A stretch of DNA of 21,112 nucleotides from a virus: UHGV virus genome UHGV-0072395, one strand, 5' to 3'. Position numbers: made by a program. Numbering within the stretch: the stretch's first letter is position 1; every line of letters starts with the position of its first letter. This document shows, piece after piece, positions 3,001 to 6,000 of this stretch.

Positions 3001-6000
3001 AAACCACCCTCGGTCTGGACGGTATAGGTTCTTCCCTCTACTGCGATGGTGTCGCGCAACTGAAGGATATCCGCGTAAATATCGCATAACCGTTCAAGGG
3101 CTAAGGTGTCGGCAACCGTTAGCACCCCCATGCCGTCAAGGAGAACCGTCAACCTTCCCCAGGCAACCTTTCCCCAGTCGGTCAGGTGCGCCGGCGGGCT
3201 TGGAATTTCTCGCGCCGGAGTCGGTTCTTTATCGTTGAGTTTACGTTTACCCGGGTTGCCGGAGACCACTTTGAGATGGGTCGGTTTCGGGCGTCGTCCT
3301 GCCATCGGAACCTCCCAGAAAAAATCTTTTCATTTCGCGGTTTTGTACAAAAAGGATGGGCGGCGGTCATTTGGGGTCAGGCTTTTGGACTTTTGACCCG
3401 CCCTCCCCGTCAGATGAGAACCGAAATAATTTCATGTAAAATGATTTCATTTGCAATCATCTCAGCAATAAAGAATGAGATTCATTATCATTTGAACCAG
3501 TGCGAGTTAGGATCAAGCGGTATGCCGCTCTCATCACAACCGATGACGGTGCCGCGCTTCTCCATTCGCTGCTTGGTGGAGTCATGGTGCTGCTTACACA
3601 GCCCTTGCCAGTTCTTCCGGCTCCAGAAAAGCTTTTGCGCCTTCGCTATTGCCTGGCTGTCACCAGAACGCAGAGCCTCTTTCAGTTTGTGCGGGATGAT
3701 ATGGTCAACCACCGTTGCCGCTGTCACCCTGCCTTGCTCGTGGCACATGGTGCATAAGGGGTGAGCACGAAGGAAGATAAGACGCTCTCTGTCCCATTTG
3801 CTGCCGTAGATGCGGGGCTCTTTGTTCATGCTCCCACCTATAAGATGCGTCTCAGCTGGGCGCGTGTCTGAACCATGGTTTTTTCAACAGACTTTTTTAT
3901 AGCTTTAATCTGATCGAGGCTCAGTGCAGTATCGAGGGAAAGCTTGATAACCAACTCTCTTCCGCTAGTATCACATCCAGGAGAGCTCAGCTTGACAGCA
4001 CCATCAATTGCAATTCGATCCGGAAAGAATTCAGGGAAGTCATTAACCTTTCCACGACATCCAAATGCATCGTATTCTGCGAATCCGGCTCCGCTATGGA
4101 GTTCATATCCGGTCTCTTTCACAATAATACGAAGCGATTTGTTGGCTTCTTTTAGCGTTACATGCTTCATATGCGTTTCCTTTTAGGCGTGAGCCTGTCG
4201 CACGGCAATGCCGCCCGAGAGGTAAACGCTACCTAACGGCATTACCCAGGCTCACTACTGAAAGACTCTCTTAATGTGCGCGTGCGAAGCGCTAAATTTA
4301 TCATTGCGACTGCCGGAGACGGCGGTGGCGGCGGTGGTGGCGGTGGCGGTGGCGGTGGCGGCTTTGGTCTCACGTAATTCTTTGGCGGAGAATTGGGTAA
4401 TTTTCTACTCATTCAATAATTCCCAATAAAAAAGCCCCGCTTATGCGAGGCTCTCACTATTATAAAAAAACTACCAACCAACCTGTTTGATTCCTTTGAT
4501 AATCTCTTCGTCACTTAGGTCGTATTTAAAACGGGCGATTAAATACTCACTATCCTGATAAGAAAATGTTTCAATCGGAATATTTATTTGACCGTGGTTG
4601 CCTTTAGGGTCAACTCCATAACATTGGTAAACATCTAAGTTTTGTTCCATTGTTATGATTTTTGGCTCAAGTCCAGGTAGCAATACCAATACTAATTTAT
4701 ACATTTTTATCTCCTCAACTAACGCAAAGAGACATTATCACAGGCACTCAGTGAATGCCTGCTGTAATGCTTACTGCCGTGTGATGTGCTCATAATGGGA
4801 AATGGTCTTGCCGTTTGCGTTCATCACATAGGCTACCTCTCCCGGCTTCAGGAACACGTTCTGATCCATACCCGATACCGCGATACTCTGCTGGCTAGGG
4901 TTGAAACCAACGCTCAGGCCGCAATGGATTTCTTCGCCGCCACCTGGCGACATCACTTTTACTGTTAACATGCTTCTTCTCCTGCTTCTGGTAATAAAAA
5001 AGGCCGCCAGTGGCGACCTTGGTATAGTTCAGTTTGATTATCAGGACGTATGACACGCGTAACAGCAGTAATAGCAGCCGTTAGATTGTGAATAGGTTTT
5101 CTTGGCTTCACGCACTGCCGGAGCACATGTTTCAAAAATTCCCAGATACAGCCTGTTTTTCTCTTCTGGTAACCGAGTGCACGAACTCACATGTACTTCG
5201 TGATCACCATTTAACTGCGCATTTTTATTGACGTAGTAATACTGTCCCATTGTTGTGTCCCAGAGTGATACTGCTGATTGCAGCATTTTCAATCTACGCC
5301 ATGGCACTTAAGCAATTAAGACGAATCTCATTTAACTATGATTGATATCACTTACTTTTCTGGCGGTTGACTTTCTGATTATTGCCTACTAGCTACATTT
5401 AAGTAAGTATCGAACCAGCAGTCCCTATGATCGCTGCAAGCAGCAAGAAGGAGGCCGCTGTTCTGCGCATTAACACACAATAAAATGAGATTGACATAGC
5501 TACGAAGACAACAATCAAAACTGGCCACATATCCAGCAGGAGAAAAATATAGCCTTCGAAGGCACTGTCAATTAGCACGTCCATATCACTAATTCCTCAG
5601 AAGAAAACCTCACCAAAGGAATTTTATCACGAACAACTAGCGCGTTAACCGCCAATCAGCAAGCATGAATTTACCTATTATTAGTAGGTTTCGTCAGACA
5701 GTTCGCCTGCACTGCTTTGTTGTGCGCCAGAATGTCGCGCTTGGTCTGTTTGTCCAAAACGTCGATGTCGTGGTCGGTCAGGTAGATGATCCGCACCCAG
5801 TTGCAGGCGGTATCAACCACCACCGGGGCGGGTAAACTTTTCGCGCAGCTCCCGATCAACAGCGTCATCAGGCATATGGCTAACTGTTTGCTGTACATCG
5901 CTGGCCCCTTTCGTTGCATCAGCACGGCGTTCTGCCGCGGCGACGGTGGCGGCGGCATTCTCTTCGGTACGTTGCTGTTCGGCTTTGGTTTCTGCCTTAC

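What the first reader, a model, noticed from the sequence alone, without database searches (positions are those of the whole stretch)
4242..4412. GGY trinucleotide microsatellite that would encode a 14-residue polyproline tract
A 42-bp (GGY)14 repeat is rare in phage DNA and is in-frame in a possible 56-aa minus-strand ORF (KPPPPPPPPPPPPPPSP). Slippage would change tract length without breaking the frame. The ORF has no lipobox, so it is not a lambda Rz1-type lipoprotein despite the proline richness.
Basis: seen in the sequence. Interest (0 to 1): 0.4.

Follow-up and report, generated by a model that had tools for sequence, protein, structure and literature searches.

The report
Variable polyproline micro-ORF in phage leader
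The proline-codon repeat is real and varies from 4 to 14 units between related Klebsiella-type prophages, but it belongs to a tiny unannotated 23-27-codon reading frame, and the 56-residue ORF seen here is a frameshifted read-through of that frame into a conserved non-coding RNA hairpin.

Summary
A (GGY)14 tract lies at 4321-4362 (+), equal to 14 CCR proline codons at 4361-4320 (-), inside the minus-strand ORF 4412-4242. No such tract appears in shuffled sequence.

Tract length does vary in relatives (4, 6, 7, 8, 10 or 14 units) and never breaks the frame. But the 56-aa ORF is not the conserved unit.

Five lineages of Klebsiella/Raoultella-type lambdoid prophages share a small cassette placed directly after an intrinsic terminator: a weak RBS hairpin, then the micro-ORF MSRKLPNxxPKNxxRPK(P)n..R*, 23-27 codons long. 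In the window's lineage a 1-nt insertion (GCA CGA TAA to GCA ATG ATA A) removes the stop. Translation would then run 20 more codons into a conserved, Shine-Dalgarno-sequestering leader hairpin found in more than 100 phages.

Evidence for coding is suggestive only. pN/pS is 0.37 in this frame against 0.62-1.17 in the other five, and it is the only frame open in all five lineages (joint shuffle p about 0.02). No gene caller has called it, and it has no homologue among 1.8-5.8 billion proteins. Most relatives lack the cassette.

My best reading is a weakly translated, EF-P-dependent polyproline micro-ORF, with about 0.4 confidence. The main rivals are a neutral spacer and a Rho-loading site. It is not an Rz1 homologue.

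The parts
4428..4451 (-). Intrinsic terminator after the 77-aa accessory gene (4704-4471). Stem GCCUCGC (4451-4445), loop AUAA (4444-4441), stem GCGGGGC (4440-4434), U-tract 4433-4428. The cassette begins right after the U-tract.
   Evidence: Sequence and MFE fold. In all five lineages a terminator with a different stem sequence directly precedes the cassette.
4390..4427 (-). Hairpin H1. AUUGGGAAUU pairs with AAUUACCCAAU. The weak Shine-Dalgarno-like GGGAA lies in the stem and the micro-ORF AUG (4412-4410) in the loop.
   Evidence: Folds. The hairpin is present in all lineages (-1.9 to -7.5 kcal/mol). P(unpaired) is 0.95 for the AUG and 0.06 for GGGAA.
4362..4412 (-). Conserved 17-codon head of the micro-ORF, MSRKLPNSPPKNYVRPK. 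The family pattern is MSRKLPNxxPKNxxRPK.
   Evidence: Five lineages compared. pN/pS is 0.37, the lowest of six frames, and this is the only frame open in all five.
4320..4361 (-). (CCR)14 microsatellite, equal to 14 proline codons, equal to (GGY)14 at 4321-4362 on the + strand. Length is polymorphic.
   Evidence: Alleles of 14/10/7 units (window lineage), 8 (L148/L151/L152), 6 (L297/L298/L299) and 4 (L009/L017). It is the core of the strongest C>G stretch of the window.
4298..4319 (-). Post-tract codons SPAVA (4319-4305), the frameshift site (AT at 4304-4303 where relatives have C), and the ancestral stop TAA (4300-4298), which is now out of frame.
   Evidence: Window ..GCAATGATAAATTTAGCGC compared with L297 ..GCACGATAAATTAAGCGC and L299 ..GCCCGATAAACTAAG. 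All 14-, 10- and 7-unit alleles carry the insertion.
4242..4304 (-). Lineage-specific read-through tail of the 56-aa ORF (MINLALRTRTLRESFSSEPG, stop UAA at 4244-4242). It is read from the conserved non-coding leader.
   Evidence: The same DNA is conserved in more than 100 phages that lack the ORF, carries 1-nt indels and has no conserved start.
4168..4292 (-). Conserved late-operon leader. Small hairpin GCGC-UUCGCAC-GCGC (4292-4278). Anti-SD UCUUU (4265-4261) pairs with AAAGG (4183-4179) of the SD CUAAAAGGAAA. Outer helix GUGAGCCUG (4255-4247) pairs with CAGGCUCAC (4197-4189). There is an inner helix and an internal loop GUGCGA. The start codon of the next gene is at 4170-4168.
   Evidence: MFE -49.7 kcal/mol, z = -3.4, 0 of 200 shuffles fold as well. 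Alignment A1 holds 102 distinct copies, with an RNAalifold consensus. No Rfam match.
3838..4170 (-). 110-aa gene of unknown function, the first gene after the leader. It is followed by HNH endonuclease (3829-3488), TerS (3305-2841) and TerL (2887-1151).

Best explanation
The repeat is the proline-codon core of a small, portable, unannotated cassette found in the late region of Klebsiella/Raoultella-type lambdoid prophages. The cassette consists of an intrinsic terminator, about 15 nt holding a weak RBS folded into a small hairpin with the AUG in its loop, and then the micro-ORF MSRKLPNxxPKNxxRPK(P)n(xx)R-stop.

Shown here:
- The cassette exists in five diverged lineages, with different upstream genes, different terminators and even different downstream partners.
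- Its intact form has 23-27 codons.
- The CCR tract changes length by whole codons, from 4 to 14.
- The window's lineage has the longest tracts (7, 10, 14) and also a 1-nt insertion that removes the conserved stop. Its frame therefore runs 20 codons further, ending at a UAA inside the 5' arm of a conserved hairpin that pairs an anti-SD (UCUUU) with the Shine-Dalgarno sequence of the next gene.

Inferred:
- The micro-ORF is translated at a low level.
- Ribosomes must pause on the polyproline run, so passage depends on EF-P and prolyl-tRNA. The cassette would then act as a tunable translational speed bump in the late transcript.
- In the window allele, ribosomes that get through the tract would melt the anti-SD arm and transiently expose the SD of the 110-aa gene, giving translational coupling.
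- In alleles with the ancestral stop they would terminate 37 nt upstream of that arm.
- Because the proline codons are themselves a C-rich, G-poor, poorly structured RNA stretch, stalling could also expose a Rho-loading site on transcripts that are not Q-antiterminated.
For: - Cassette and alleles.
- Different contexts. In L299 the cassette sits right after Rz/Rz1 and is followed by a strong SD and a 53-aa membrane-like ORF, not by the leader.
- Coding signal over the 17 pre-tract codons in 5 lineages: pN/pS is 0.37 in this frame and 0.62-1.17 in the other five frames. It is the only frame without stops in all five. Column shuffles reach both properties in 122 of 5000 trials. L297 and L299 differ by 4 synonymous changes and 1 non-synonymous change. 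ATG is kept in 5 of 5 lineages and the TAA stop in 4 of 5. The first two bases of every tract codon are always CC, while the third base varies.
- Frameshift: sequence comparison.
- SD-sequestering hairpin.
- C>G maximum of the whole 21-kb window at 4398-4321 (C 39, G 13, z = 4.5). Mean P(unpaired) within the tract is 0.62, against 0.47 for the whole leader.
- Published knowledge: runs of three or more prolines stall ribosomes unless EF-P acts, and upstream residues modulate the stall (PMC4176338). Polyproline combined with rut sites gives Rho-dependent loss of expression without EF-P (PMC5021804). A uORF can unfold an RBS-sequestering stem (PMC8092293).
Against: - No gene caller has predicted any of the 8 variants, although their contigs are in the 15-billion-protein collection. 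No gene is called in this gap in any locus.
- There is no protein homologue.
- The RBS is weak (only GGA matches) and is paired in H1.
- Selection statistics rest on about 14 substitutions, with p about 0.02-0.1. Within the window/L009 clade all 4 changes are non-synonymous.
- Some of the 'synonymous' changes could instead be compensatory for RNA hairpins H1 and H2.
- Most relatives with the same leader and the same 110-aa gene lack the cassette (L052, L289, L292, L295, L280, L283), so it is dispensable.
- The window lineage tolerates loss of the stop codon.
- Late transcription by Q-modified polymerase should ignore Rho, which limits the relevance of a rut function.
Confidence: 0.4

Rival explanations
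1. The segment is a non-coding, functionally neutral spacer. It is a lineage-specific 85-126-nt insertion between the terminator and the conserved leader, and it happens to carry a slippage-prone triplet microsatellite. The ORF is fortuitous.
For: The cassette is absent from most relatives that share both flanks. It is absent from more than 120 IMG/VR contigs that carry the leader. There is no gene call and no homologue. The window ORF's C-terminal third is demonstrably non-coding DNA elsewhere. A triplet repeat keeps any frame by construction, so frame preservation in the tract proves nothing. The RBS is weak and structured.
Against: The cassette has persisted through about 16-24% nucleotide divergence in five lineages with different neighbours, while keeping the ATG, an open frame, the stop (4 of 5) and a frame-specific excess of synonymous change. 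In L299 it sits in an operon-like arrangement with a downstream SD.
Confidence: 0.3
2. It is an RNA-level element. The C-rich, G-poor, poorly structured (CCR)n stretch would be a Rho-loading (rut) site. It would reinforce the upstream intrinsic terminator and insulate the packaging genes from read-through of accessory-gene transcripts in the lysogen. Tract length would set its strength.
For: The 78-nt window at 4398-4321 is the strongest C>G stretch on the transcribed strand of all 21 kb (C 39, G 13, z = 4.5). The tract's mean P(unpaired) is 0.62, above the 0.47 of the whole leader. It lies in a leader just after a terminator and before a strong hairpin. CC dinucleotides are invariant while third bases vary.
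Against: Short alleles (4-6 units) are far less C-rich yet are maintained. Nothing shows Rho dependence. This reading does not explain the conserved ATG, stop and frame-specific substitution pattern. Q-modified late transcription should be Rho-resistant (established knowledge of lambda Q).
Confidence: 0.15
3. It encodes a trans-acting cationic proline-rich peptide of 23-37 aa with net charge about +6 and about 45% proline. The peptide would have its own target, such as the ribosome exit tunnel, a chaperone or a lysis component.
For: The amino-acid pattern MSRKLPNxxPKNxxRPK is conserved with synonymous changes. The cassette is independent of its downstream partner. Size, charge and proline content resemble proline-rich antimicrobial peptides; this comparison is from memory and was not tested.
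Against: A tract that varies from 4 to 14 residues, and a tolerated 20-residue frameshift tail, are hard to reconcile with a precise binding function. There are no PRP repeats and no export signal. Translation signals are weak. There is no homologue in any library.
Confidence: 0.1
4. The 56-aa ORF as annotated by the first reader is the real gene product.
For: It is an open frame with an ATG start, and it is kept in the 14-, 10- and 7-unit alleles of this lineage.
Against: The tail arises from a 1-nt insertion relative to four other lineages, which stop at TAA. The tail DNA is a conserved non-coding hairpin that carries indels in other phages. It is never called as a gene.
Confidence: 0.05

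Closest known systems
Proline-codon leader ORFs of Salmonella mgtA/mgtCBR (mgtL, mgtP) and the mgtQ uORF
   Same: They are short ORFs in an mRNA leader with consecutive proline codons. Ribosome progress depends on EF-P and prolyl-tRNA, and the ribosome's position decides which downstream stem-loop forms. A uORF can open an RBS-sequestering stem (PMC8092293, PMC5299641, PMC6460261).
   Different: Those ORFs have 2-4 proline codons, not 4-14, and no microsatellite. They are chromosomal and their alternative structures are proven. Here translation is unproven. Only the frameshifted window allele overlaps the regulatory stem. The cassette also occurs without that stem (L299).
EF-P-maintained transcription-translation coupling at polyproline motifs next to rut sites (Elgamal, Artsimovitch and Ibba 2016, PMC5021804)
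   Same: Polyproline codons are combined with C-rich RNA, so stalling could uncouple the ribosome from the polymerase and let Rho load.
   Different: That work used engineered reporters and a few chromosomal clusters. Here the proline codons themselves would be the rut-like sequence, in a phage late operon where Q antitermination should override Rho.
Lambda Rz1-type o-spanin
   Same: It is a small, proline-rich product encoded in the lysis-proximal late region. Lambda Rz1 contains KPPPPPA (from memory), which resembles RPKPPPPPPAV here.
   Different: The micro-ORF has no signal peptide or lipobox cysteine and is not embedded in or adjacent to Rz in most lineages. The window has its own Rz/Rz1 pair.
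Simple-sequence contingency loci (phase variation by slipped-strand mispairing)
   Same: A microsatellite inside a reading frame whose copy number differs between close relatives.
   Different: The unit is 3 nt, so expression is not switched on and off; only length changes. No within-population hypervariability is shown: five independent 14-unit assemblies are identical.
Nascent-peptide arrest leaders (SecM, TnaC, ErmCL)
   Same: They are roughly 17-30-codon leader ORFs with a conserved amino-acid sequence upstream of a stall site, and they control a downstream gene through mRNA structure or Rho.
   Different: No arrest has been demonstrated. Here the stall would come from generic polyproline, not from a specific arrest motif.

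Membership tests
Rz1-type o-spanin lipoprotein | N-terminal signal peptide with a lipobox cysteine | tested here: not met
   No cysteine and no hydrophobic N-terminus in any of the five variants. No PHROG spanin hit for the ORF.
Rz1-type o-spanin lipoprotein | Paired with, embedded in or adjacent to an Rz i-spanin gene, as the phage's only o-spanin | tested here: not met
   The window has Rz-like (5813-6088, phrog_1026) and Rz1-like (within 5671-6072, phrog_1275, lipobox LLIGSC) genes 1.3 kb away.
Protein-coding gene under purifying selection | Start, stop and frame conserved across diverged relatives | tested here: met
   ATG is kept in 5 of 5 lineages. The frame is open in 5 of 5 and is the only one of six frames to be so. 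The TAA stop is kept in 4 of 5; the window lineage has lost it through a +1 insertion.
Protein-coding gene under purifying selection | Excess of synonymous over non-synonymous change | tested here: inconclusive
   pN/pS is 0.37 against 0.62-1.17 in the other frames. Only about 14 substitutions are available. The column-shuffle p is 0.11 for the ratio alone and 0.024 jointly with openness.
Protein-coding gene under purifying selection | Recognisable ribosome-binding site and a gene-caller prediction | tested here: not met
   Only GGA of GGGAA matches the SD, and it is paired in H1. None of the 8 variants is in the 15-billion-protein collection.
Proline-codon leader ORF (mgtL/mgtP type) | Short ORF with consecutive proline codons in the 5' leader of a regulated gene | tested here: met
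   It lies between a terminator and the SD of the next gene in 4 of 5 lineages, with 4-14 proline codons.
Proline-codon leader ORF (mgtL/mgtP type) | The ORF overlaps alternative stem-loops, so that ribosome position controls downstream expression | tested here: inconclusive
   The window allele ends inside the 5' arm of the SD-sequestering hairpin (stop 4244-4242). Alleles with the ancestral stop end 37 nt upstream of the anti-SD. L299 has no such hairpin.
Proline-codon leader ORF (mgtL/mgtP type) | Translation of the ORF and EF-P or proline dependence of the downstream gene | not testable with these tools
   This needs ribosome profiling, reporter fusions and an efp mutant.
Rho utilisation (rut) site | About 80 nt of C-rich, G-poor, poorly structured RNA | tested here: met
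   C is 39 and G is 13 in the 78 nt at 4398-4321, the maximum of the whole window. Mean P(unpaired) within the tract is 0.62 against 0.47 for the whole leader. This holds only for the long alleles.
Rho utilisation (rut) site | Rho-dependent termination downstream | not testable with these tools
   This needs bicyclomycin or rho-mutant transcript mapping.
Contingency locus (phase-variable SSR) | Repeat-number change switches expression by frameshift or promoter spacing | tested here: not met
   All tract changes are multiples of 3 nt. The single frameshift in the family lies outside the repeat.
Contingency locus (phase-variable SSR) | High-frequency length heterogeneity within a population | not tested
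   Only consensus assemblies were available. Alleles track flanking SNP haplotypes.

The most novel reading that the evidence does not exclude
The cassette would be a portable attenuator that phages place after a terminator at the lysis/packaging boundary. It would sense translation capacity, meaning EF-P, prolyl-tRNA and Rho. Ribosome stalling on the polyproline run would decide whether the C-rich RNA is exposed to Rho and whether the downstream SD-sequestering hairpin is opened. Microsatellite slippage (4 to 14 codons) together with a frameshift toggle would let lineages retune the strength of this gate.
Probability: 0.12. Interest if true: 0.7.

Novelty: new variant of a known kind. Interest (0 to 1): 0.42.

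Why it matters
If the micro-ORF is translated, a run of up to 14 prolines would, as far as I recall, be among the longest in an enterobacterial system. It sits in a leader where ribosome stalling could be read out as gene control. That would make it a natural, length-tunable test case for EF-P-dependent pausing, transcription-translation coupling and uORF-mediated unmasking of a sequestered RBS in a phage late operon.

It is also a reminder that gene callers miss ORFs below 30 codons. The family is absent from every protein library searched.

Independently of the ORF, the work exposed a roughly 120-nt leader element conserved almost base for base in more than 100 mosaic lambdoid phages. It is not in Rfam and deserves its own study.

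If the micro-ORF is not translated, the finding is an ordinary polymorphic microsatellite in an intergenic spacer.

Tried and rejected
- **Rz1/o-spanin:** rejected. There is no lipobox and the spanins are elsewhere.
- **Remnant of the 'TonB family' gene annotated in Klebsiella phage ST13-OXA48phi12.4:** rejected. That protein is an unrelated lipoprotein-like sequence.
- **Plus-strand polyglycine ORF (4276-4377) and poly-Ala/Val ORF (4274-4429):** rejected. They are antisense to the late operon. In the compared head region the antisense frames contain stops in relatives, and their pN/pS is 0.62-1.01.
- **Chi-like recombination hotspot:** rejected. GCGGTGG and GGTGGTGG are not GCTGGTGG, and the G-rich strand has the wrong orientation relative to the nearby cos end (reasoned from the sequence).
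- **cos site:** rejected. In mEp213 and mEp043 the leader lies 700-800 bp from the genome end, which places cos between HNH and TerS.
- **Known RNA family:** none. Rfam gave nothing at gathering scores or at E up to 10.
- **Sequence strings in the literature:** none found. Topical searches found nothing on such a phage ORF or leader.
- **DNA homology of the insert in phages and plasmids:** none. tblastn against phages also found none. E. coli complete genomes lack the cassette.
- **Wasted scans:** the single genome contigs and metagenome-contig scans went on a 20-mer that returned only chance hits. A 15-mer viral scan returned only chance hits.
- **uORF starting at the ATG of TTTTTTATGCGC in canonical leaders:** rejected. 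That ATG is absent wherever no terminator precedes the leader.
- **Promoter inside the gap:** none found by the consensus scan.
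Full report
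**Context.**
The window is the late region of a lambdoid (HK97/Hendrixvirinae-like) prophage, with its genes on the minus strand. The order is:
- two holins (7814-7160);
- an ORF at the endolysin position, with no Pfam match (7066-6587);
- Rz-like and Rz1-like spanins (6088-5671);
- several small accessory ORFs;
- a 77-aa ORF (4704-4471);
- the finding;
- a 110-aa ORF (4170-3838);
- HNH endonuclease (3829-3488);
- TerS (3305-2841) and TerL (2887-1151).

The nearest phage records are Klebsiella phages. Homologues of the 110-aa protein are named from Klebsiella and Raoultella. No complete E. coli genome holds this stretch.

**Observation.**
The repeat is real. TRF finds it at 4320-4361. It reads as (GGY)14 at 4321-4362 on the + strand and as 14 CCG/CCA codons at 4361-4320 on the minus strand. 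Shuffles give zero matches to (GGY)8. Comparable CCN runs are almost confined to relatives of this locus within 2.37 Mb of fetched phage DNA. ORF 4412-4242 (56 aa) is as described.

**Length polymorphism.**
I fetched contigs that encode exactly the neighbouring proteins. They gave these alleles:
- 14 units: four independent assemblies besides the window.
- 10 units: L014.
- 7 units: L011, L012, L013, L015 and L016, forming two SNP haplotypes, one of which carries S8F.
- 4 units: L009 and L017.
- 8 units: L148, L151 and L152. L151 and L152 come from NCBI genome assemblies.

These are shown. IMG/VR added three contigs with 6 units: L297, L298 and L299. Every tract change is a multiple of 3 nt, as expected for any triplet repeat whether coding or not. 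Alleles track flanking SNPs, and the 14-unit contigs are identical in their flanks. The tract is therefore mutable on the scale of lineage divergence. Population-level hypervariability is not shown.

**What the ORF really is.**
Comparing the lineages shows that the conserved unit is much shorter than 56 aa. The variants are:
- Window: MSRKLPNSPPKNYVRPK-P14-SPAVA, then the read-through tail.
- L297/L298: MSRKLPNPPPKNFVRPK-P6-AVAR*.
- L299: MSRKLPNPPPKNFVRPK-P6-VVAR*.
- L009: MSRKLPNSPPKNGARPK-P4-QR*.
- L148: MSRKLPNPLPKNGSRPK-P8-QR*.

Four lineages stop at the same TAA, within CGATAAA. The window lineage reads GCAATGATAA where L297 reads GCACGATAA. This is a +1 insertion at 4304-4303 that puts the TAA (4300-4298) out of frame. 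The frame then continues for 20 codons to a UAA at 4244-4242.

Those 20 codons are read from a DNA element that is conserved in more than 100 other phages without any such ORF. There it carries 1-nt indels and has no conserved start.

**The cassette is portable and dispensable.**
In every lineage it starts about 10-15 nt after the U-tract of an intrinsic terminator. The terminator stems and the upstream genes differ between lineages: a 77-aa ORF, DUF2513, DUF2560, or Rz/Rz1. Downstream it is usually followed by the conserved leader, of either subtype, with different first genes. In L299 it is instead followed 13 nt later by a strong SD and a 53-aa membrane-like ORF.

Close relatives with the same leader and the same 110-aa gene have no cassette at all. 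In them the terminator abuts the leader directly (L052, L289, L292, L295, L280, L283). So do about 120 IMG/VR contigs that carry the leader.

**Is the micro-ORF coding?**

Evidence for coding:
- ATG is conserved in 5 of 5 lineages and the stop in 4 of 5.
- Over the 17 pre-tract codons, pN/pS is 0.37. The other five frames give 0.62-1.17.
- It is the only frame open in all five lineages.
- Shuffling alignment columns reproduces the low ratio in 11% of trials, openness in 15%, and both together in 2.4%.
- L297 and L299 differ by four synonymous changes and one non-synonymous change.
- Variable residues cluster at positions 8, 9, 13 and 14.

Evidence against coding:
- There are only about 14 substitutions to work with.
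- All four changes within the window/L009 clade are non-synonymous.
- Positions 8-9 and 13-14 can pair with each other in a predicted hairpin (H2), and position 6 pairs with the 5' UTR in H1. RNA-level constraint could therefore mimic part of the signal.
- The RBS is weak and is paired in H1.
- None of the 8 variants is in the 15-billion-protein collection, although their contigs are.
- No homologue exists in PHROGs, in phage tblastn, in the 5.8-billion-protein index, or in an exhaustive phmmer search of 1.84 billion representatives. That last search gave only two weak hits, both through the proline run.

ORFs of 23-27 codons fall below the usual minimum length of gene callers, so their absence is expected. 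The 49-56-aa forms of the window lineage could have been called and were not.

**The RNA view.**
On the transcribed strand, 4398-4321 is the strongest C>G stretch of the whole window (C 39, G 13, z = 4.5). The tract's mean P(unpaired) is 0.62, against 0.47 for the whole leader. This is the textbook composition of a Rho-loading site.

Downstream, the conserved leader folds into a long hairpin (MFE -49.7 kcal/mol, z = -3.4). Its consensus structure pairs UCUUU with the AAAGG of the SD of the next gene. A ribosome reaching the window allele's stop codon would have unwound that arm.

**Mechanism I commit to (confidence about 0.4).**
The micro-ORF is weakly translated, and its polyproline run forces EF-P-dependent pausing. 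The window allele is a tract-expanded, frameshifted derivative whose ribosomes would run into the SD-sequestering hairpin and open it.

The steps shown here are the anatomy, the polymorphism, the frameshift, the frame-specific substitution pattern and the predicted pairing. The inferred steps are translation, pausing in vivo, coupling and any involvement of Rho. The published basis for the inferred steps is PMC4176338, PMC5021804 and PMC8092293.

The rivals are a neutral spacer (0.3), a rut-type RNA element (0.15), a trans-acting proline-rich peptide (0.1) and the literal 56-aa protein (0.05).

**Comparison with known systems.**
It works most like the proline-codon leader ORFs of Salmonella mgt operons, and like the EF-P/rut coupling described by Elgamal et al. 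I cannot file it as a member of that group, because translation and regulatory dependence are untested and only one allele type overlaps the regulatory stem. It fails the defining tests for Rz1 and for on/off contingency loci.

The family itself has no described relatives. I rate it a new variant of a known kind: a short ORF carrying an in-frame microsatellite of proline codons.

**Verdict.**
The function is open. Interest is moderate (0.42). A 4-to-14 polyproline micro-ORF family in phage leaders is unusual and directly testable, but it is rare, dispensable and not yet shown to be expressed.

Noticed in passing
window 4168-4292 (minus strand); alignment A1; loci L028-L147: A leader element of about 120 nt is conserved almost base for base in more than 100 distinct lambdoid phage and prophage contigs from E. 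coli, Klebsiella and Raoultella. It sits directly after a terminator and before the first gene of the packaging-proximal block, and that gene varies (at least 10 different N-termini). The predicted long hairpin pairs UCUUU with the SD AAAGG and has an asymmetric internal loop GUGCGA. It has two length subtypes, with a few compensatory changes between them. It is not in Rfam and was not found in the literature. It may be an SD-sequestering or RNase III-type processing leader.
   Followed up: partly
window 8847-9071 and 9120-9194 (minus strand): A tRNA-Thr(UGU) gene lies upstream of the holins in the late region, and a full-length match to sRNA family STnc100 (90 bits) follows it immediately.
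   Followed up: no
window 20228-20261 and 20317-20381: Two tandem arrays lie inside the 303-aa minus-strand ORF 19803-20714: a perfect 12-nt repeat (ATGACGGATCTA, 2.8 copies) and a 15/30-nt repeat (CCTCAAATTTTGAAC, about 4 copies). They look like the iterons of an origin within a replication gene.
   Followed up: no
L273 (IMGVR_UViG_3300017909_002445), minus strand around 6011-6031: An unrelated 173-aa ORF begins MGSRPKPPPPPTIVYAPAPPPP. It shares 26 identical nucleotides (TCGAGACCAAAGCCGCCACCGCCGCC) with the L148 micro-ORF. This could be chance among low-complexity sequence or a hint to the origin of the cassette.
   Followed up: partly
L299 3873-4131 (minus strand): Here the micro-ORF lies directly after Rz/Rz1 and its terminator. 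It is followed 13 nt later by a strong SD (AAGGGGAGGG) and a 53-aa ORF with a hydrophobic N-terminal stretch (MMLYYIWNGLLIIIVIGLPVVLMIAS...). This may be a two-gene unit.
   Followed up: partly
L011, L012, L013, L015, L016 (accessory region between the lysis genes and the 77-aa gene): Close relatives carry an 86-94-aa gene with a precomputed Pfam PF24729 (Acb2_Tad1_hairpin, anti-CBASS/Thoeris sponge family) match at the position where the window has other small ORFs.
   Followed up: no
window 4459-4464 (minus strand): A perfect TATAAT hexamer lies just after the stop codon of the 77-aa ORF, a few bases upstream of the terminator stem. It has no acceptable -35 hexamer, and the promoter scan did not report it.
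   Followed up: no
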